Below, in pieces: positions 15,674-37,739 of a stretch of DNA of 64,000 bases (the stretch's first letter is position 1; the number at the start of each line of letters is the position of its first letter). Below the pieces are notes generated by a model. That model ran no database searches and had not been told where the DNA came from. It was given only the letters and a program-made list of their open reading frames with translations. The position numbers and the translations under genes were made by a program. Where the stretch lies: positions 11,676-75,675 of the forward strand of contig CAWACI010000006.1 of NCBI GenBank assembly GCA_963780465.1, in the 5' to 3' direction. The stretch comes from an uncultured Pseudomonadota bacterium (GTDB taxonomy: Bacteria; Pseudomonadota; Alphaproteobacteria; Acetobacterales; Acetobacteraceae).

Positions 15674-16851
15674 CTGTACAGGCTTTGTTCCGTCATCCAT
15701 TGAATGGCGCCGTTCAATGACAGACCGGCCTGGTCAGGAACATCCCCGGCCCGCTTATCTCGAACGACGTCGTATGTTTCGTCCGCACCGGCGACGAGCG
15801 TCAGCGCCGCGCCGCCCGGTGCGGCGCACCCTTTGGCACAAGCCGAGACATGGAGCACCCCCGCCCCGGCCCAATGCGGCGCCAGCCCGGCCGCCACGGC
15901 GCGGGCATCGGCAAACGCACTGGGGCAGGCAGGCCGCCCCGCGCAAGCCGCGACCCGCAGCCGCACATCGCCGGGCGCAGTGATGAAGCCCGCCGCTTGC
16001 GCCGCCGCCTCGATGCCGCGCGCCTCGCTTATGCCCAGCAGCACCAGGCTGCGCGTGCGCGTGGTGCGCAAAACCCCGTTGCCGAACCGCTCGGCCAGAT
16101 CCGCCGCGCGGCAGATCATCGCCGCATCCTGGACGCCAAAGGCCAGACCCAGCCCGAAGGCGCGCGGCATCGCCCCGACACTGGCGGCGTGCGCCGGATC
16201 GGGCGGCGAAAGAAACTCCGGCCGCAACCCGGCTTCAGCAAACACCGTTTGGGCGCCGAGCTGTTCCAGAAGTTTTTGCATCCGCCTGGGGCTGGGCGTG
16301 GTTTTTGCGGCCAACCGCAAAAACGCATGAGTCAACGCCTGCGTCGCCTCGATCGGCTCGGGGGCGAAAACAGAAAATCCGCCTGGCAGGACCAGAAGCG
16401 ACCCATTCGGCCGGACAAAAATATTGATATCCGCCGCCCCCTCGGCCAGCGCGAAGCCGAATTTCGCCGGCAATGCCGCCAGCCCGGCATCGCGCTCCAG
16501 CCAGTCCTCCAACTGTTGCGCCAGCGCCAGCGCCGCCGGATCGGGCAAGGCGGGGAGCAGAATATTGCGCCGCCGCTCCACCGCCGGATCAGCGCTGGCC
16601 AGCCCCGCCGCCAGCATCGCCGCCGCGAATCCGGGCACTGTCTCAAGCGACAACCCGCGCGCTTGAAAATTCGCCCGGTTGGTGAGCTCGATCCGCCCTG
16701 AACCAAAATTTTGCGCCGCCGCCGCCAGCGCTCGCATTTGCGCCGCGCTGACGCCCGCCGCGCGCGGCTTGACGCGGAGCAAAAATCCGTCGCCCGCCGC
16801 CATCGGCTCGAACAGGCTGGGGCACCAGCCTTTGGTGATCGCGCCGCTCAT
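15670..16851 (-). CDS. cobG: Precorrin-3B synthase (nitrite/sulfite reductase-like)
   Basis: KGWCP....PM..GDG.L.RV, ELTNRAN.Q.RG, LPAKFGF, [4Fe-4S] motifs AC.G.P.C.S and HVS.C.KGCA. Confidence 0.9.
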   Translation of the reverse strand: MSGAITKGWCPSLFEPMAAGDGFLLRVKPRAAGVSAAQMRALAAAAQNFGSGRIELTNRANFQARGLSLETVPGFAAAMLAAGLASADPAVERRRNILLPALPDPAALALAQQLEDWLERDAGLAALPAKFGFALAEGAADINIFVRPNGSLLVLPGGFSVFAPEPIEATQALTHAFLRLAAKTTPSPRRMQKLLEQLGAQTVFAEAGLRPEFLSPPDPAHAASVGAMPRAFGLGLAFGVQDAAMICRAADLAERFGNGVLRTTRTRSLVLLGISEARGIEAAAQAAGFITAPGDVRLRVAACAGRPACPSAFADARAVAAGLAPHWAGAGVLHVSACAKGCAAPGGAALTLVAGADETYDVVRDKRAGDVPDQAGLSLNGAIQWMTEQSLYR

Positions 16852-19800
16852 GGTTCGGCCAGGAATTCGGCGACGCTGTTGCGCCGGCAGCGCCAGAGAT
16901 CGCGTTGCATCGCATTGCGGAATTTCTCCCGCATCGCCCGGTGCGCCGCCGGGTTGGCACGGCGCAGAAACGCCTCCACCTCAGGCTGCCCCAGGGTCGC
17001 CTCGAACAGCAGGTCGAATTGCGCGTCGAACCGGCCCGGCAGCATCGCTGAGAAGGCATACAGCCCGTCCAGCGCACGGGAGATTTCCGCGGCACCGCGA
17101 TAGTCGTGCCGCATCATGCCCGCGATCCATTCCGGGTTGGCCGCCCGGCCGCGCACCACACGCGCGATCTCCTCGCGCAGCAGGCGCACGCGCGGCGCAT
17201 CGTTGCGCGAGGTATCCACATGATAGAGCGCCGGTGCCGCCCCCAGCGCGGCGGCGGCGGCAGCGAACCCGCCTTCGAAGGCCGCAAAATCGGGGCCATC
17301 CAGAATATCGATCTCGGCATGGTCCTGCTGGTGGATGAAGCCATCGGCCCCGGCGACCCGAGCGGCAAAGCCCGGCGCATCGCTGGCGCCGTCCAGCCCC
17401 TGGCCATAGGCATAGGCGGAGGCCGCCAGATAGGCCTCGCCAAGTGCCGCCTTATTCTCAAAGGCTTCGGCGTGAATAAGTCCCGACACCCCGGCGCCAT
17501 AGGCCCCCGGCGCCGCGCCGAAAATCCGGGCCGTGGCGCGGCGCAACGCGTCTCCCTGCAGCCCGCGCGCGGCGGCGGCCAGAGCGTTCCAGTCCGCCGG
17601 TTCATCGCGCGCGGCGATGCTCTGCACCGCCATGTCGAAGATCAGCATCTGCGTCTCGAAGGCATCGCGGAACAGGCCGGAGATGCGCAAGGTCACATCC
17701 ACGCGCGGCCGGTCCAGCGCCGCCAGCGGCAGGATTTCCACGCCGGTGATCCGGTTGGACGCATCGTCCCAGATCGGGGTCACGCCCATGAGGATGAAGG
17801 CGAGCGCCAGATCCTCGCCCCCCGTGCGCAGCGCCGAACTGCCCCATAGGTCGATCACCAGGCTGCGCAGCCAGTCGCCATGCTCCTGCAGATGCCGGCG
17901 CAGAATCGCCTCCGCGGTTTTTCGGGCCAGGATCGCCGCCGCGCGCGTCGGCGTGGTGCGGGGGTCCAGGCTGTACAGGTTGCGCCCGGTCGGCAGCACG
18001 TCGGCACGGCCCCGGCTCGGCGCGCCGGCCGGGCCCGGGGGGACAAACCTTCCGTCCAATGCGGCCAGCAGCCCCGCCGCCTCCCCCGCAGCCGACATAT
18101 CGAGGGCGGCGGCCAAGGCCAGGCGATCCGCGCCGGGCGATGCGGCGTGGATCGCCTGAAGCAGAAGTTCGCGCCGCTCCGGGGCCGGCTGTTGACCAAA
18201 CACATGCAGCCCGTCGCGGATCTGCAGCTCCTTCACGTCGCACAGATACGCGTCCAGCCGGGCCAGCGCGTCATCCGCCGGCATGTCGCGGGCACCGCCG
18301 CTCTCAGCCAACAGCCCCGCCGCCTCGGCGCGGTCCAGAATTTCCGCGCGGAGCATTTCCGTCCGGCGGCGGTCCAGGCCATCCGCAGCCGCGTAATCGT
18401 CGATCAGCTTTTCCAGCTCCGCCGCCGCGCCATGCGCGCCAGCTGATTTCAGCGGCGGGGTCAGATGCCCCAGCACCACAGCGCCCAACCGCCGCCGCGC
18501 CACCGCCGCCTCGCCGGGGTTGTTGACGATGAACGGGTAGATCACCGGCACCCCGCCGCACAAAGCTGCCGGAAAACAGGTTTGCGGGTCCGGCGCCAGG
18601 GCCTTGCCGGGGAGCCATTCCAGCGTGCCATGCGCGCCGAGATGCAGCAGCGCGTGAATGCCCAGGCACTGCCGCAGCCAAAGGTAGAACGCGATATAGG
18701 CGTGCCGCGGCGGCAGATCCGGGTCGTGATACGCCGCCTTGCGGTCCGCCGCCGTCCCCCTGTCCGGCTGCACCGCGACGATGATTTTCTGCACCCGCAC
18801 ATGCGGCAGCGCGAACCAGCCCTGGCACAGGTTCGGGTCTTCCTCCGGCGCGCCCCATGCTGCGCGCACCCGCGTCTGCGCCTCTGCCGGAAGTTCGGCG
18901 AACAGGGTTTGGTAATCGGCCAGGGACAAAAACTCTGTCGGGGCGATGCCGTGGAGCAACGGCGAAATTTCGTCCGCCGGTACGTCATAGCCTTCGGCAT
19001 GCAACAGCCCCGCAATCGCGTCCAGGCTGGCAAAACTGTCCAGGCCTACCGCATGGCCGATCTGCCCCTGCGCTGCGGCGGCCCCCGGATAATCCGACAG
19101 GACGACGGCGATGCGACGCGACGCCGGCTCTGCTGCCGCCAGCCGCACCCAGCCGGCGGCGCGCTCCGCCACCCAGGCGATCTGCTCTGCCGCCGGCTTG
19201 TGGATCGTCCGCGTGTATTCCGGCCCCTCTTCCCGCTCCCCCTCGGTCTTGAAGGAGATCGCGGTGGTCGAGAGGCGCCCATCGCATTCCGGCAACACGA
19301 TCTGCATCGCCATATCCGCCGGCGAGAGGCCGCGCGAAGAGTTTTGCCAGCCCTCCTGCGTCGATCCCGCCAGGATCAGCTGCAGCACCGGGCAACCCGC
19401 CGCGTCCAGCGGCGAGCCCTCGGCAGCCGGGCCGCGCGCGGAAAACGCGGTGGCGTTGAGCACCACAGCCGGGTGCCATTGCCGGAGTGTTGCGACGGTA
19501 AAGGCGGCGGTCTCGGGCGATTTCAGGCTGTCCACATAGAGCGCACGGCAACGCATGCCGCGCGCCTGCAGCGCCTGCGCCAAAGCCTCGATCGGCGCGA
19601 TATCGCCGGAGAGCAGATGCGAGCGGTAGAACACCAGCACCGCCAGCGGCGCGCTTGCATCTTGGGCGTCCGCCCCGGCCAAGGCGTGCACGCCAAAGCG
19701 GGGCATCGGCTCTGGTTTCTGCTCCGGCGGTGCGCAGAGCCCCGCCAGGGACGCGGCGAGTTGCAGCGCGTTGGACCAGTTGGTGGGACCGCCTTCGCGC

Positions 19801-20225
19801 AGATAGTGGTCGAGTGCCGCGAGCGTGGCGGCATTGACGGTCGAGACCTCCTGCAGCCTTGCGTCGCTCTGCCCCTCGCCCGCGACCACAGCCAGGTTTT
19901 TGCCCTGGGCCCGGCACAGCGCCAGCACCTCCTCGCAGCCATAGCGCCAGGACTCCACGCCGCCGAGCAGCCGGATGATCACGGTTTTCGCACCGCTCAA
20001 CACCTGCTCCACGTAGAGATCAACCGAGAGCGGATGACGCAATTGCGCGAGGCTCGCCAGCCGCAATCCCGGCCGCTCCCCCGCCATCCGGCTCCAGGCC
20101 ATCGCCGCCGCCCCCAGATCCGCATCCGAGAAGGACAGCAGCACCAGATCCGCCGGGCTCTGGCCGAGCTCGACGGCAGCGGCGGCCTCATCCAGGTTAC
20201 GCTGCTCGCGGAACAGGATATGCAT
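16848..20225 (-). CDS. cobN: Aerobic cobaltochelatase large subunit
   Basis: Start MHILFREQ at 20225 (the track ORF extension to 20351 reads through the MITE). HLGAHGTLEWLPGK, YPFIVNNPGE, IRDGLHVFG, DVLPTGRN, DVTLRISG.FRD.F, RG.A.NP.WI. Confidence 0.96.
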   Translation of the reverse strand: MHILFREQRNLDEAAAAVELGQSPADLVLLSFSDADLGAAAMAWSRMAGERPGLRLASLAQLRHPLSVDLYVEQVLSGAKTVIIRLLGGVESWRYGCEEVLALCRAQGKNLAVVAGEGQSDARLQEVSTVNAATLAALDHYLREGGPTNWSNALQLAASLAGLCAPPEQKPEPMPRFGVHALAGADAQDASAPLAVLVFYRSHLLSGDIAPIEALAQALQARGMRCRALYVDSLKSPETAAFTVATLRQWHPAVVLNATAFSARGPAAEGSPLDAAGCPVLQLILAGSTQEGWQNSSRGLSPADMAMQIVLPECDGRLSTTAISFKTEGEREEGPEYTRTIHKPAAEQIAWVAERAAGWVRLAAAEPASRRIAVVLSDYPGAAAAQGQIGHAVGLDSFASLDAIAGLLHAEGYDVPADEISPLLHGIAPTEFLSLADYQTLFAELPAEAQTRVRAAWGAPEEDPNLCQGWFALPHVRVQKIIVAVQPDRGTAADRKAAYHDPDLPPRHAYIAFYLWLRQCLGIHALLHLGAHGTLEWLPGKALAPDPQTCFPAALCGGVPVIYPFIVNNPGEAAVARRRLGAVVLGHLTPPLKSAGAHGAAAELEKLIDDYAAADGLDRRRTEMLRAEILDRAEAAGLLAESGGARDMPADDALARLDAYLCDVKELQIRDGLHVFGQQPAPERRELLLQAIHAASPGADRLALAAALDMSAAGEAAGLLAALDGRFVPPGPAGAPSRGRADVLPTGRNLYSLDPRTTPTRAAAILARKTAEAILRRHLQEHGDWLRSLVIDLWGSSALRTGGEDLALAFILMGVTPIWDDASNRITGVEILPLAALDRPRVDVTLRISGLFRDAFETQMLIFDMAVQSIAARDEPADWNALAAAARGLQGDALRRATARIFGAAPGAYGAGVSGLIHAEAFENKAALGEAYLAASAYAYGQGLDGASDAPGFAARVAGADGFIHQQDHAEIDILDGPDFAAFEGGFAAAAAALGAAPALYHVDTSRNDAPRVRLLREEIARVVRGRAANPEWIAGMMRHDYRGAAEISRALDGLYAFSAMLPGRFDAQFDLLFEATLGQPEVEAFLRRANPAAHRAMREKFRNAMQRDLWRCRRNSVAEFLAEP

Positions 20226-20233
20226 GGCGGTGC

Positions 20234-20436
20234 TAGAGCCTGATCGGTTTAAGGGGAAACATAAAAGCAGCCGCTTTTTTGAAAAAAAGCGGCGCAAAAA
20301 ACTTTTGTTTAACTGGGCCCGTGGCGCTGAAACCAGCACGGCCCAGTTCAAAAAAGTTTTTTTGCTTCTTTTTGTTCACCAAAAGAAGTCTTTTGCTCCG
20401 CTTCGACATGGCTTGCCCTAAACCTGTCACGCTCTA
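20234..20436. mobile_element. MITE-like element, full-length copy 3 with 30-bp terminal inverted repeats and TA target duplication
   Basis: Left end TAGAGCCTGATCGGTTTAAGGGGAAACATA vs reverse complement of right end TAGAGCGTGACAGGTTTAGGGCAAGCCATG (21/30 identical). Internal three-hairpin core; no coding capacity. Confidence 0.88.
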
Positions 20437-21474
20437 TCCCGCGATCATTGTCTCGATGCCGGCGCGATCCATCCCCGTACGGCCGATCACCACCAGATGC
20501 CCGTCCCGCGCCTCGCCCGGCGCCCAGGCTCGGGTGAAATCCTGGCGGAAACGCGCGCCGACTCCCTGGATTTCCAGCCGCATCGGCTTGCCGCGCACGG
20601 CGATAAAGCCCTTGATCCGTAAAATATCATGCGCCGCCGCCGCCGCTTCCAGCCGGGCCAGCAGCTCGGCTGGCGTATCCATTTCGGCGATGGGCACGAC
20701 GAAACTCTCGAAATCGTCATGCTCATGCGCGCCATCCTCGGCATCGTGATGCGAGGGCCGCGCCGCCAAGTCATCTTCGGCTGCCGCGGCGAGGCCCAGC
20801 AGCACTTCCAGGTCCAGCCTGCCGTTGCTCGCCGCGACCAGTTTCACCGCGCGCGGCAGTTCCCCGGTGATCATGGCACGGACCCGCGCCAGCTCGTCCG
20901 CGCCCAGCAGGTCGGACTTGTTCAGGATCACGAGATCCGCGGCGCGGAGCTGGTCCTCGTACACTTCCGCCAGCGGGTTATCATGGTCGAGCGAGGGATC
21001 GGCGGCGCGCTGCAGGGCGACCGCCTCCGGGTCGTCCGCGAAGCGCCCGGCCGCCACGGCCGGACCATCCACCACGGCGACGACGCCATCCACGGTGAGG
21101 CGCGAGCGGATGCTCGGCCAGTTGAACGCCTTGATCAGCGGCTTAGGCAGAGCCAGGCCCGAGGTCTCGATGAGAATATGCTCCGGCGGGTTGGGGCGAT
21201 CCATCAGCGCCTCGATGGTCGGCACGAAATCATCCGCGACCGTGCAGCAGAGGCAGCCATTGGCGAGTTCGACGATGTCCGTCTCCGGGCAGTTCTCCAG
21301 CCCGCAGGTCTGCAGAATATCGCCATCAACGCCGCGCGAACCAAACTCGTTGACGATCACCGCCAGCCGCCTGCCGCCGGCATTCTCCAGAATATGCCGC
21401 ACCAAAGTGGTTTTCCCAGCACCGAGAAAGCCGGTGATGATGGTGGCGGGGGTTTTTACAGCCTGCAAGTTCAT
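20434..21474 (-). CDS. cobW: COG0523 GTPase, cobalamin biosynthesis protein CobW
   Basis: ITGFLGAGKTT, VNEFG, ELANGC.CCTV.DDF, ETSGLALPKPL..AF.WP, HHD...HEHDDF. Confidence 0.96.
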   Translation of the reverse strand: MNLQAVKTPATIITGFLGAGKTTLVRHILENAGGRRLAVIVNEFGSRGVDGDILQTCGLENCPETDIVELANGCLCCTVADDFVPTIEALMDRPNPPEHILIETSGLALPKPLIKAFNWPSIRSRLTVDGVVAVVDGPAVAAGRFADDPEAVALQRAADPSLDHDNPLAEVYEDQLRAADLVILNKSDLLGADELARVRAMITGELPRAVKLVAASNGRLDLEVLLGLAAAAEDDLAARPSHHDAEDGAHEHDDFESFVVPIAEMDTPAELLARLEAAAAAHDILRIKGFIAVRGKPMRLEIQGVGARFRQDFTRAWAPGEARDGHLVVIGRTGMDRAGIETMIAG

Positions 21475-21866
21475 GAATTTTCCTTCGGTTCAGTGGCCGG
21501 TTCCAGCCCATAGGCCGGAAAGCGGCTGAGAATGGCATTGGCGAGAGACGCCGCCCGGCGTGACGGCATCACCGCCCCGGTCGCCGAGGCGCCATAGAGG
21601 CGGGCATAATCAAGGATATCGGCGGCATGCTCCGGCGTCAGGCGTCCCAGGAGGTAGCCGAAATGCTTGCCGGGCATAAAAATCGACGCCGTGCATCCGT
21701 GTTCGCACGCCGCAAGGCAGGAGACAGGCCGCAACGCCACCGGCGCCGGGTCCGCCAGCAACGCTTCCAGCGCCGCGTAAAGAAGCTGCCCGGGGCGTTC
21801 CTCGGACTCCATGCCGGCCTTGCAGGTAACGCAAACGTGCAAAACGGCGGATACAGGTTTCGTCAC
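21471..21866 (-). CDS. DUF1636-like small Cys-rich putative metal-binding protein
   Basis: GTG start at 21866 after GGGGAAG. LHVCVTC, VSCLAAC..GCT, YL.G.L, Y.AS..G..P..R. Stop overlaps the cobW ATG. Confidence 0.8.
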   Translation of the reverse strand: MTKPVSAVLHVCVTCKAGMESEERPGQLLYAALEALLADPAPVALRPVSCLAACEHGCTASIFMPGKHFGYLLGRLTPEHAADILDYARLYGASATGAVMPSRRAASLANAILSRFPAYGLEPATEPKENS

Positions 21867-21996
21867 AACTTCCCCAGTGCGCGCATGCAAACGCGTGTCC
21901 GGGGCGCGGACCGACCATAAACGATCATTTGCCGGAATAAATTCCAACAAATGAAGCTGGCCGAGGCGCCCCGCCCGGTCAACGTTGAGACATGAT

Positions 21997-22165
21997 GGCA
22001 GGTCTCCTGGCTTGCGGATCGAACGCACCCGTCAGCCTTCCCGGAGATATTCCAGTGGCTGAGAGACGGGCGCTTTCCGCTTACAGTTGCGGGGGCAGCT
22101 GAGGGATCGAGCCGTTGGCTCTCACCTCATTCCCTATTCACCTTCACAAAAGAAGGACCATCGCC
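21997..22165 (-). promoter_or_regulatory. Cobalamin (AdoCbl) riboswitch
   Basis: Reverse strand reads ...AATAGGGAATGAGG...GCTGCCCCCGCAACTGTAAGCGG...GCCACTGGAA..CCGGGAAGGC...CGCAAGCCAGGAGACCTGCC. Heads the DUF1636-cobW-cobN arm. Confidence 0.95.
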
Positions 22166-22240
22166 GGCTAGGTAATCTGCCGGCGATTGCTCTGTCAACG
22201 AAAGCGCAAAGCGTCTGGCCCTCGGCCGAGGGCCATGGTC

Positions 22241-35594: not shown

Positions 35595-35770
35595 TGGAGC
35601 CCGATCGATTTTGGACAAATCATATCGAAGCGAAGAAGAGGAAGGCTTCTTTTTGTGAACAAAAAGAAGCAAAAAAACTTTTCTAAACTGGGCCGTGCTG
35701 ATATCAACGCCACAGGCTCAAAGGAGCAAAAATTTTTGCGCCGCTTTTTTAAAAAGTCGATCTGGCTCTA
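35595..35770. mobile_element. MITE-like element, copy 8, both TIRs recognisable; its terminal TA is the IS630 insertion site
   Basis: Left TGGAGCCCGATCGATTTTGGACAAATCATA and right ...AAAGTCGATCTGGCTCTA (rc TAGAGCCAGATCGAC) both match the TAGAGCCTGATCG TIR. Confidence 0.82.
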
Positions 35771-36895
35771 TTAATCAGTCCATAAATAAGTTCATGCCTA
35801 GGCGGCGTATTTCAGAGAAGGTTTCTGGTAGAAGGAACGAATTTTTTGCGGATTTTTTTGGAGGCTACGCATCGATGAAACCACGTTTCTTTTGAAGTTG
35901 GCCTTGCTCGTCGTGGCCATCCGTCCCACAGTATCGGCTTTCAGGTGTTTCCAAACGAGTTCGTCGGGATTGCGGTCTGGAGAGTAGGGTGGCAGGAAAA
36001 ACAGCTTCAATTTCCCGCCGAGCGTTTCAACAAATGCTGTTGTCTTTTTCGCGCGATGGGCGGGACCATTATCGACGATCAGAAAAATCGTTCGCACAGC
36101 GCCGATCATCAGCCGCTTCAGAAACTCAATGAACACATCGGCGTTCACACCGCCTTTTTCCTTAATCATAAATCGCATCAGGCCTTTCGATGAAATCGCC
36201 GAAATCAGGCTAAGGCTGTGGCGAGCGCCTGTTGTTTCAACGATAGGTGTCTCACCTCGTTTGCCCCATGTCCGTCCCGCGTGATGGTCCGAACGCATGT
36301 GCGCAGCATCGCCAAAATAGATGTCAGCGCCTTGTGCTTGCGCCATTTTCTTGATCTTCGGATATTCACTCTTCAGCCATTTTTGAACCAACGCCTCGTC
36401 ACGCTCAATTGCACGATGCAAAGGTTTCTGGCAGGTGATGCCGAGCTGCGCCAACAAGCGGCCGACGGAGTTTCTGGCCAGCCTGATACCGTATTTTCTC
36501 TTGATCAACTCGGCGACCATCTCCCGCGTCCATAGTGCAAATTCGAACTTGAGCTGCTGCGGAGTTTTCTGCGTCACGGTGTCGTAAATCCACTTCAGCT
36601 TCCTGTCGTCTAACTTCGGCGGACGACCTGCCAAAGGCTTCGCCTTCAGGGCATTCCAACCGCCACCACGGTAATCCGCCAACCATTTATACATAGCCCG
36701 GATCGTTACCCTTAATGTTCGCGCCACAATCTCGGGGCTTTCCCCGTCTTGCACGCTGCGTACCGCGCGCACCCGCAGCGCCTCCAGGGTTGCGTGATCC
36801 AACTTGCGAGCATCATCGTCTCTCATGCCGAAAAGGAATCACAGCCAACCCAACGCGTCAATAAAAAAATGCACTTACTTACGGACTGCTTAATA
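35769..36895 (-). mobile_element. IS630-family insertion sequence (coordinates include flanking TA dinucleotides)
   Basis: IRs TATTAATCAGTCCATAAATAAGT / rc TATTAAGCAGTCCGTAAGTAAGT (20/23); TA at both ends. Confidence 0.93.
35798..36826 (-). CDS. IS630-family transposase, single intact ORF
   Basis: HTH N-terminus (GRPPKL), WT..MV..LI, YFGDAAH, LIVDNGPAH, FLPPYSPDRNPDELVW. Confidence 0.95.
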   Translation of the reverse strand: MRDDDARKLDHATLEALRVRAVRSVQDGESPEIVARTLRVTIRAMYKWLADYRGGGWNALKAKPLAGRPPKLDDRKLKWIYDTVTQKTPQQLKFEFALWTREMVAELIKRKYGIRLARNSVGRLLAQLGITCQKPLHRAIERDEALVQKWLKSEYPKIKKMAQAQGADIYFGDAAHMRSDHHAGRTWGKRGETPIVETTGARHSLSLISAISSKGLMRFMIKEKGGVNADVFIEFLKRLMIGAVRTIFLIVDNGPAHRAKKTTAFVETLGGKLKLFFLPPYSPDRNPDELVWKHLKADTVGRMATTSKANFKRNVVSSMRSLQKNPQKIRSFYQKPSLKYAA

Positions 36896-37739
36896 GATAG
36901 CGTTGACATTCACTTGGTCCAGATGAATGCGCTGACGAGGCACAGGATGGACAGGAATGCCCTTGGTGTTTGGTCGTAGCGTGTTGCGATTCGCCTGAAG
37001 TGTTTGATTTTCAGGAAGAAGCGTTCGACGAGGTTTCGTTCACAGTAAAGGGCAAAATCGCAGGGCACCTGTGGCGATGTTTTTCTCGGCGGAATCACTG
37101 GCACGGCATCCTGGTTCACGATGGTTTCACGCAGTGCCTTTAAATCATATCCCTTGTCGGCCAGGACATGACCCGCGGGCAGCTCGGCGATCAGTTCCTC
37201 GGCCTGGGTAATGTCGTTGACTTGGCCAGGAGTAAGGATGAAGCGTAGTGGATTGCCTAAAGCATCGACGACGGCATGGATTTTGGTGCTCATTCCACCG
37301 CGCGAGCGTCCGATCGCGCGAGCTTCAGGCCCCCTTTTTTGCCCGCCGCATGTTGATGCGCACGGACTATGGTGGAATCGATCATGACGTACTCAAAGTC
37401 GGGGAAATCCGCCATGGCGGCAAAAAGCCGGTCCCAGACCCCGTTCTTCGACCAGCGCGAAAAGCGGACGAAGACGCTGTTCCAGTTGCCGAAAAAGGCT
37501 GGCAGATCGCGCCACGGCGAGCCCGTACGGGCTAACCAGAGCACAGCTTCAATAAACAGCCGGTTGTCCGCACCGGTCCTGCCGGGATCGCTGCTCTTGC
37601 CCGGCAAATGAGGCTCCATCCGCGCCCATTGATGATCTTTTAATATCAGCCGAACCCCAGTCATTCAAAACTCCTCGCGAACAAGGAGGGTGAATCACAT
37701 TTGCGGCCGAGCCGGAATCCTGAATGTCAACGCAATCTA
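36894..37739 (-). mobile_element. IS5-family (IS427-like) insertion sequence, two ORFs joined by -1 frameshift
   Basis: IRs TAGATAGCGTTGACATTCA / rc TAGATTGCGTTGACATTCA (18/19). orfA 37290-37664 (RTGSPWRDLP..FGNWNSV..RF.RW..GVW, MIDST.VRAHQHAAG); orfB 36910-37293 (TKIHA.VD, LADKGYD, Y.ERN.VER.F..IKHFRRIATRYD). AAAAAAG slippery site at 37334-37340. Confidence 0.92.

What the first reader, a model, noticed from the sequence alone, without database searches (positions are those of the whole stretch)
20216..20445. Empty-site reconstruction: removing the MITE restores a tight cobW-cobN junction, and the element supplies the cobW stop
Seen: deleting 20234-20436 and keeping one TA gives, on the minus strand, ...GCG GGA TAG CACCGCC ATG..., i.e. 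the cobW stop 7 nt before the cobN start. With the insertion, the cobW TAG is formed by the target TA plus the first G of the TIR. Inference: this is a real transposition event with 2-bp duplication that put three strong hairpins inside a riboswitch-controlled B12 operon, possibly tuning cobN-and-downstream expression or mRNA stability.
Basis: partly seen in the sequence, partly recalled or inferred. Interest (0 to 1): 0.62.

Follow-up and report, generated by a model that had tools for sequence, protein, structure and literature searches.

The report
MITE inserted at cobW stop codon
A 199-bp non-autonomous transposon, one of about 750 related copies in this Acidocella-like genome, landed in the TA of the cobW stop codon inside the vitamin B12 operon; close relatives still have the empty 7-nt cobW-cobN junction, and the element carries an open frame that ends on the old stop codon, which may be how this repeat family sits inside operons without breaking them.

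Summary
On the minus strand, cobW ends GGA-TAG, where TA is the target and G is the first base of the element. A 199-bp element with 21-nt imperfect terminal inverted repeats follows. A second TA comes next, then G-CACCGCC-ATG of cobN.

Acidocella aquatica and four other genus members have cobW-TAG, 5-7 nt, then the cobN ATG. 67 of 78 Acetobacteraceae loci have spacers of -1 to 14 nt.

The element belongs to a family of 749 loci (3.1% of the genome, 85 full length). It is absent from Rfam, and I found no description in the literature searched.

New family-level findings:
- One third of intact termini supply a gene's stop codon.
- About 125 copies sit in tight stop-to-start junctions.
- In this genome those copies are orientation-biased (86:39).
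- Copies that precede a start codon keep an element-spanning open frame more often (45% against 23%).

In the cob copy this frame has 58 codons and ends on the ancestral TAG, 7 nt before cobN.

The event itself is an ordinary MITE insertion.

The parts
21980..22177 (-). Cobalamin riboswitch at the head of the operon
   Evidence: Rfam RF00174, 126.7 bits against a gathering score of 31.5
21471..21812 (-). DUF1636 gene; its end overlaps the cobW start
   Evidence: PF07845, 68 bits; codon-score gene call
20434..21474 (-). cobW; the stop TAG at 20436-20434 is the target TA plus the first G of the element
   Evidence: TIGR02475, 534 bits; sequence
20435..20436 (.). Left copy of the duplicated target TA
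   Evidence: Relatives have a single TA at this site
20236..20434 (-). The element proper, 199 bp. With one TA it is 201 bp = 67 codons, so the reading frame is preserved across it.
   Evidence: Full-length match to the family HMM, positions 2-200, 206 bits; 85 full-length copies in the genome
20416..20434 (-). Left terminal inverted repeat (GAGCGTGACAGGTTTAGGG)
   Evidence: the repeat finder pair I3; same terminus in 51 near-full-length copies
20236..20254 (-). Right terminal inverted repeat (CCTTAAACCGATCAGGCTC)
   Evidence: the repeat finder pair I3
20365..20388 (-). Hairpin 1 (CTTCTTTT / AAAAAGAAG)
   Evidence: Inverted repeat I10; two-sided changes across copies at HMM pairs 51-70 and 58-63
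20296..20362 (-). Central long hairpin with a G+C-rich inner stem (about 20313-20346) flanked by A/T runs
   Evidence: Inverted repeats I1 and I7; MFE structure
20260..20293 (-). Hairpin 3 (GCCGCTTTTTT / AAAAAAGCGGC) plus the tail TGCTTTTATG; terminator-like in the sense direction
   Evidence: Inverted repeat I6, 100% complementary; the only terminator-like site in 19900-20800
20233..20409 (-). Element-spanning open frame of 58 codons. AGGG lies 6 nt before the ATG at 20409-20407. It is in frame with cobW and ends on the ancestral TAG (20235-20233).
   Evidence: translate; equivalent frames in the cob-junction elements of G166 and G200; no Pfam match
20234..20235 (.). Right copy of the duplicated TA
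20226..20232 (-). The original 7-nt cobW-cobN spacer, CACCGCC
   Evidence: relatives have CAACGCG or CGGCGCG
16848..20225 (-). cobN, intact, 1125 aa
   Evidence: NF008973, 1512 bits

Best explanation
SHOWN. A non-autonomous transposon (MITE) of 199 bp, with TA duplication and 21-nt imperfect TIRs, inserted into the TA of the cobW TAG stop codon. This split a tightly coupled cobW-cobN junction that had 7 nt between stop and start. Both ends of the family read TA|GAG. An insertion into a TAA or TAG stop therefore always regenerates TAG for the upstream gene, and CobW is unchanged.

The element plus one TA is 201 nt (67 codons), and that frame contains no stop. As a result, the ancestral TAG, still 7 nt before the cobN ATG, now terminates an element-borne frame.

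INFERRED (about 45%). The operon transcript reads through the element. Ribosomes that finish cobW restart just inside it, at the GTG 3 nt after the stop or at AGGG-N6-ATG 24 nt after it. They translate across it, which melts the three hairpins and leaves no long untranslated stretch. They then terminate on the old TAG and restart at cobN as before. On this reading the insertion is nearly neutral for operon expression.

The event itself I hold at more than 95%.
For: Event:
- Empty sites in five genus members and tight junctions in 67 of 78 family loci.
- TIRs and TA.
- 749 family loci.
- Target preference Y-TA-R.

Stop supply is general:
- 24 of 58 clean termini form the stop of a long high-GC3 ORF, against 5 and 2 in the control frames.
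- 62 of 194 TA termini are called stop codons, against a 5.5% baseline, p = 1.6e-30.

Operon tolerance:
- About 125 copies lie between a stop within 12 nt and a start within 40 nt.
- cobN is intact.
- The G166 and G200 orthologous cob-junction copies are 87.6% identical with no indel, against 76% identity at flanking third codon positions.

Relay:
- Orientation bias next to downstream starts is 86:39 in tight junctions and 153:71 overall, p = 4e-8. It reverses to 157:225 where no start follows. There is no bias relative to the GC-skew strand.
- An element-spanning ORF is present in 62 of 137 copies followed by a start against 102 of 443 without one (OR 2.8, p = 1.3e-6). This holds only in the favoured orientation and in all three HMM-score tertiles.
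- The frame ends exactly on the right TA in 14 of 28 copies near a start against 7 of 83 elsewhere (p = 8e-6). The ATG is kept in 24 of 28 against 43 of 83.
- All three full-length cob-junction elements keep the frame.
- A similar enrichment appears in a second genus: 14 of 43 against 18 of 123, p = 0.014.

Reinitiation efficiency is expected to fall as the distance between stop and restart codon grows (PMC6728339).
Against:
- Only 45% of favourably placed copies have the frame.
- SD-like motifs before the frame's start are not enriched (10 of 62 against 27 of 102).
- The AGG variant of the right TIR is not enriched next to starts.
- The short-form elements at the same cobW-cobN junction in Roseomonas/Pseudoroseomonas lack such a frame.
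- The orientation bias did not replicate in genome G114 (32:30). There the ORF enrichment fell in the other HMM-labelled orientation.
- The peptide is not conserved between the G166 and G200 orthologues.
- Gene calls were home-made (2845 genes, 75% coverage).
- Subfamily history could mimic selection.
Confidence: 0.45

Rival explanations
1. Passive passenger. This is the same MITE insertion, but it is simply tolerated. RNA polymerase reads through, cobN is translated by independent initiation, and the open frame is an inherited property of one subfamily with no role.
For: - The family consensus itself is open in this frame, so young copies have the frame by descent.
- No SD enrichment.
- Short-form elements without such a frame occupy the same junction in other genera.
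- Orientation bias is absent in G114.
- The peptide is not conserved.
Against: - The ORF enrichment next to starts is restricted to one orientation.
- It is independent of the HMM score per nt, which does not differ between contexts (0.872 against 0.875, p = 0.69).
- The orientation bias flips with context.
- The orthologous G166 and G200 copies evolve more slowly than flanking third codon positions.
Confidence: 0.33
2. Attenuator or processing site. The hairpins act as a partial intrinsic terminator, an RNase III/RNase E target or a ribosome-stalling structure right at the cobW stop. This would lower cobN-and-downstream expression, or CobW itself, relative to the ancestral operon.
For: - Hairpin 3 plus TGCTTTTATG is the one terminator-like site in the region, on the sense strand.
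- The family is strongly enriched between convergent genes: 122 of the tightly flanked copies, while convergent pairs make up only 15% of gene pairs.
- The TIR stem starts at the stop codon.
- Correia elements are reported to be RNase III targets (PMC2229807).
- From my own recall: REP hairpins within 15 nt of a stop have been reported to stall ribosomes (Liang, Rudd and Deutscher 2015). This paper was not found in the library.
Against: - Terminator-like hairpin-plus-T tails are about equally frequent in both orientations (280 against 269 of 580), so they do not explain the orientation bias.
- About 125 copies sit inside tight operon junctions.
- cobN and the downstream cob genes are intact.
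- The insertion has been retained since the G166/G200 split.
Confidence: 0.17
3. History rival: one ancient insertion in the common ancestor followed by several precise excisions, rather than repeated insertion into the same TA.
For: - The window, G166 and G200 carry full-length copies at the identical TA in the same orientation.
- Support for the window's exact position in the tree is weak (66 and 42).
Against: - The cobW+cobN tree puts the window outside the G180/G166/G200/G186 clade (bootstrap 100).
- Empty-site taxa (G186, G187, the aquatica clade) are interleaved, so one gain would need at least three precise losses against two gains.
- G180 carries a different short-form element.
- 32% of family termini sit on stop codons anyway.
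Confidence: 0.25

Closest known systems
Correia / NEMIS elements of Neisseria
   Same: About 100-150-bp TIR-bounded, TA-duplicating, high-copy, non-autonomous elements. They are co-transcribed with neighbouring genes, and their RNA folds by pairing the 5' end with the 3' end (PMC2229807).
   Different: There is no sequence relation. Correia elements have an IHF site and outward promoters, and RNase III processing is their proposed function. This family has three internal hairpins with A/T-run stems and termini TA|GAG that regenerate TAG. A context-dependent open frame has not been reported for the 155-bp Correia form, which has stops in all frames (PMC2229807).
RUP of Streptococcus pneumoniae (IS630-Spn1-derived MITE)
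   Same: A 107-bp MITE with TA target duplication (PMC2229807). This is the best-documented IS630-type bacterial MITE.
   Different: The RUP TIRs match a resident IS630-Spn1. Here none of the resident IS630-family elements whose ends I could delimit, out of 31 DDE_3 loci, has similar TIRs. Copy number is about seven times higher.
ERIC / IRU (127-bp enterobacterial repeat)
   Same: From my own recall (De Gregorio et al. 2005): TA-flanked imperfect palindromes, often inside operons, with orientation-dependent effects on neighbouring mRNA. Delihas reports that they carry ORFs and occur intragenically (PMC2759123, abstract only).
   Different: There is no sequence relation. The proposed ERIC effect is on mRNA stability through RNase E, not translation across the element. 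Stop-codon regeneration and a frame ending on the duplicated target have not been described there, as far as I know.
REP / BIME / REPIN elements
   Same: Hundreds of intergenic hairpin repeats located just after stop codons and enriched between convergent genes. The roughly 140-nt core-only copies of this family (about 200 loci with no trace of the outer shell and several hundred more with partial shells, no sharp TA ends) look like this.
   Different: REPs are 20-40-nt palindromes with GTAG or CGTC heads, are mobilised by RAYT and have no TSD. CGTC repeats are reported missing from Acetobacteraceae (PMC3733652). The cob copy has TIRs and a proven TA duplication. Only two partial Y1_Tnp fragments exist in the genome.

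Membership tests
MITE (generic non-autonomous DNA transposon) | Small size with no transposase gene | tested here: met
   199 bp; the only ORF has 58 codons and no Pfam match
MITE (generic non-autonomous DNA transposon) | Terminal inverted repeats | tested here: met
   21 nt, 81% complementary; conserved termini in 51 near-full-length BLAST copies; 85 full-length loci by HMM
MITE (generic non-autonomous DNA transposon) | Target-site duplication proven by an empty site | tested here: met
   A single TA at the orthologous site in A. aquatica, G167, G172 and G186 (G187 has TGA there); TA on both sides here
MITE (generic non-autonomous DNA transposon) | Multiple dispersed copies | tested here: met
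   749 loci = 110.6 kb = 3.1% of the genome; nine copies in the window
IS630 / Tc1-mariner-derived MITE | TA duplication with an NTAN (CTAG-like) target | tested here: met
   Position -1 is C/T in 83% and position +1 is A/G in 93% of clean copies
IS630 / Tc1-mariner-derived MITE | TIRs shared with an autonomous IS630-family element | tested here: not met
   No TIR pair 600-2500 bp apart encloses a transposase. The 31 DDE_3 loci have other termini (TTAATCAGTCC, GTGCCGCG, GTGGATA, TATACC and others). Only this draft genome was searched.
REP / REPIN | Short palindrome with a GTAG/CGTC head, no TSD, and an associated RAYT | tested here: not met
   The cob copy has TIRs and a TSD. Only two partial Y1_Tnp fragments were found; their neighbourhood was not examined.
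Rfam RNA families | Match at the gathering score | tested here: not met
   Only the two B12 riboswitches pass in the 64-kb window, despite nine element copies. The best sub-threshold hit scores 22.8 bits.
Intrinsic terminator | G+C-rich hairpin followed by a U tract, with 3' ends mapped there | tested here: inconclusive
   The pattern is present at 20260-20293. It occurs equally in both orientations across the family. No transcript data were available.

The most novel reading that the evidence does not exclude
The family is a translation-transparent MITE. Its TA|G ends regenerate a stop codon on whichever side a gene reads in. Its length keeps the frame. An internal open frame carries ribosomes from the upstream stop to the duplicated ancestral stop, so translational coupling and protection from polarity survive a 200-nt structured insertion. 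Selection would then keep orientation and frame specifically in operon junctions, which would explain how a genome carries about 125 such insertions inside operons.
Probability: 0.4. Interest if true: 0.75.

Novelty: new member of a known kind. Interest (0 to 1): 0.5.

Why it matters
The insertion itself is a textbook MITE event, now documented with filled and empty sites.

The family is apparently undescribed, fills 3% of a bacterial genome and is found in about a quarter of sampled Acetobacteraceae genera. It shows three regularities that can be tested directly:
- insertion into stop-codon TAs with automatic stop regeneration;
- context-dependent orientation;
- context-dependent retention of an element-spanning reading frame.

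If the relay idea holds, it would be a new way for mobile DNA to be harmless inside operons. It would also be a ready-made part for linking genes translationally.

In practice, these elements create spurious small ORFs and long apparent intergenic gaps in annotation. They may also shift stop-codon usage towards TAG.

Tried and rejected
2. Autonomous partner. TIR-pair scans found only pairs of separate MITEs flanking ordinary genes. Resident IS630 and IS5 elements have unrelated ends.
3. Composite hypothesis (a core repeat inserted into an older, roughly 74-bp shell MITE): no shell-only copy exists.
4. Copy-specific complementarity of the flanks of core-only copies: not significant (p = 0.07). 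The flanks are simply purine-rich on the 5' side and pyrimidine-rich on the 3' side.
5. The AGG in the right TIR acting as an SD for the downstream gene: not enriched near starts.
6. Orientation-specific terminators as the cause of the orientation bias: terminator-like sites are symmetric.
7. Replication-strand bias: none (308:325).
8. RNAalifold on 120 copies gave no useful consensus. Pair counts on the consensus MFE show mostly invariant stems, with two covarying pairs.
9. Replication in a second genus (2.8 Mb of G114): the orientation bias was not reproduced, and the ORF enrichment was reproduced only when both orientations were pooled or in the other label.
10. Plasmid collection: no match.
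11. Literature: no paper in the library describes this repeat or a MITE-borne coupling frame.
The Y1_Tnp neighbourhoods and a third genome were therefore not examined.
Full report
**What is there.**
On the minus strand the window carries a B12 operon:
- a cobalamin riboswitch (21980-22177, 126.7 bits);
- a DUF1636 gene (21471-21812);
- cobW (20434-21474);
- cobN (16848-20225);
- cobG and further cob genes.

All of these junctions overlap or are a few nt long, except cobW-cobN, which is 208 nt. The sequence there reads GGA TAG AGCGTGACAGG...GATCAGGCTC TA GCACCGCC ATG. The arms 20234-20254 and 20416-20436 are 21-nt inverted repeats, 81% complementary, with TA at both outer ends. The RNA folds at -97.3 kcal/mol with z = -7.2.

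**The empty site exists.**
A CobW search of one genome per species returned 80 loci, 78 of them with both genes.
- The closest named relative, Acidocella aquatica, and a MAG read GCGGGATAG-CAACGCG-ATG. That is one TA and 7 nt, against the reconstructed GCGGGATAG-CACCGCC-ATG.
- 67 of the 78 loci have spacers of -1 to 14 nt.
- A genus-level search with the reconstructed empty site added further empty sites: G172 (7 nt), G186 (6 nt) and G187 (5 nt).

This is a true insertion with a 2-bp TA duplication. A 3-bp TAG duplication is excluded, because the base after the right TA is A in 55% of clean copies.

**The same TA is occupied elsewhere.**
- G166 and G200 carry a full-length family member at the identical TA, in the same orientation (207-nt spacers).
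- G180 carries a different short-form member.
- On a cobW+cobN tree the window lies outside the G180/G166/G200/G186 clade (bootstrap 100), and empty-site taxa are interleaved. Two or more independent insertions are therefore more parsimonious than one gain with three precise losses. This is a single-locus tree, so I keep the rival at 0.25.
- Four Roseomonas/Pseudoroseomonas species have a core-type element directly after the cobW stop.

**The family.**
- BLAST and a profile HMM find 749 loci in this 3.55-Mb genome: 110.6 kb, or 3.1%. 85 are full length and nine lie in the window.
- A core of about 130 nt with three hairpins is present in nearly all copies. The outer shell with the TIRs is present in only a subset.
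- No shell-only copy and no autonomous partner were found.
- The core occurs in 36 of 151 sampled Acetobacteraceae genomes, often in hundreds of copies.
- It is not in Rfam or in the plasmid collection. I found no description in the literature.

**Stop-codon supply is a family property.**
The target preference is Y-TA-R. Of 194 termini that end in TA, 62 coincide with the stop codon of a gene called by my codon-score gene finder. The baseline is 5.5% of non-genic TA dinucleotides (p = 1.6e-30). Both ends read TA|G, so a gene reading in from either side receives a TAG.

**Context.**
- Copies lie between convergent genes far more often than expected. They are rare between divergent genes.
- About 125 copies nevertheless sit in tight stop-to-start junctions like cobW-cobN. 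Many of these sit at former TAATG-type overlaps.
- Next to a downstream start the orientation is biased: 86:39 in tight junctions, 18:3 for full-length copies and 153:71 overall.
- Where no start follows, the bias reverses to 157:225.
- There is no bias relative to the GC-skew strand.
- The cob copy is in the favoured orientation.

**The open frame.**
- In that orientation the element plus one TA is 201 nt, and the frame set by the upstream stop stays open: IAG*SVTGLGQAMSKRS...KPIRL*.
- In the cob copy an ATG (20409-20407) is preceded by AGGG at 6 nt and opens 58 codons. These end on the right-hand TAG (20235-20233), which is the ancestral cobW stop, 7 nt before the cobN ATG.
- The G166 and G200 cob-junction elements keep equivalent frames, although the peptides differ.
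- Genome-wide, such element-spanning frames occur in 62 of 137 favoured-orientation copies followed by a start, against 102 of 443 without one (OR 2.8, p = 1.3e-6). There is no enrichment in the other orientation. The effect is the same in all three HMM-score tertiles.
- Termination exactly on the right TA occurs in 14 of 28 copies near a start against 7 of 83 elsewhere (p = 8e-6).
- In 2.8 Mb of a genome from another genus (G114, 216 short-form loci), the pooled enrichment recurs: 14 of 43 against 18 of 123 (p = 0.014). The orientation bias does not recur.

**Interpretation.**
The event is certain. For its function I favour a translational relay, at about 45%.
1. Ribosomes ending cobW restart inside the element.
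2. They translate through it.
3. They stop on the old TAG.
4. They restart at cobN.

This would preserve coupling. Coupling is expected to weaken as the distance between stop and restart codon grows (PMC6728339).

Several results count against the relay:
- no SD enrichment;
- frames in only 45% of the relevant copies;
- frame-less elements at the same junction in other genera;
- incomplete replication in G114;
- home-made gene calls;

The passive-passenger reading (0.33) and the attenuator or processing-site reading (0.17) remain open. Terminator-like hairpin-plus-T tails exist, but they are symmetric between orientations.

**Comparison and verdict.**
The element works like Correia, RUP and ERIC elements: TA-duplicating, co-transcribed MITEs (PMC2229807). 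It meets every generic MITE criterion. It fails the one specific test for an IS630 derivative, which is a matching autonomous element. It is a new member of a known kind. The stop-regenerating, frame-keeping design is the part worth an experiment.

Noticed in passing
L076:4036-4862 (Roseomonas acroporae): The same cobW-cobN junction holds an 827-nt insert encoding a VapB antitoxin (PF09957, 54 bits) and a PIN-domain VapC (PF01850, 46 bits). A toxin-antitoxin pair sits inside the B12 operon.
   Followed up: partly
L091, L093, L097 (Commensalibacter spp.), cobW-cobN spacers of 558-599 nt: An AT-rich insert with a small ORF lies between cobW and cobN in three species. L109 has a 128-nt, near-perfect long G+C-rich palindrome at the same junction. 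About 10 of 78 loci have something inserted here.
   Followed up: no
window 35596-37739: A family copy truncated at its right end (HMM 2-160) abuts an IS630-type element (TIR TTAATCAGTCCATAAATAAG). That element abuts an IS5-type element (TIR GATAGCGTTGACATTCA), and each shares a TA with its neighbour. Neither IS has TIRs like the MITE.
   Followed up: partly
whole genome G000: The genome is very IS-rich: 31 DDE_3 (IS630-type) and 58 DDE_Tnp_1 (IS4/IS5-type) loci. Two partial Y1_Tnp fragments lie at C12:469025-469213 and C12:508987-509157. Whether they relate to the core-only repeats was not examined.
   Followed up: no
whole genome G000 (rough gene calls): Stop-codon usage is TGA 1499, TAA 709 and TAG 637. 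TAG at 22% seems high for a 63% G+C alphaproteobacterium. Conversion of TAA to TAG by element insertion could contribute; this was not tested.
   Followed up: no
G166 and G200 cobW-cobN elements (L131, L132): The orthologous copies differ at 26 of 210 positions with no indel. That is slower than the flanking third codon positions (76% identity), which hints at constraint or gene conversion on the element.
   Followed up: partly
window 20259-20402 (-): A sub-threshold Rfam match to Brucella sRNA CI27 (RF02600, 22 bits against a gathering score of 59.8, E = 0.009). It is probably chance, but the Brucella sRNA might itself derive from a repeat.
   Followed up: no
family alignment, HMM pairs 51-70 and 58-63 (hairpin 1): Two stem positions change on both sides between subfamilies (TA/AT and GC/TA) and stay 96-97% paired, against 51-64% after shuffling. 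Across genera the hairpin 3 stem is GCCGC/GCGGC in Acidocella and GTTC/GAAC in Roseomonas and G114.
   Followed up: partly
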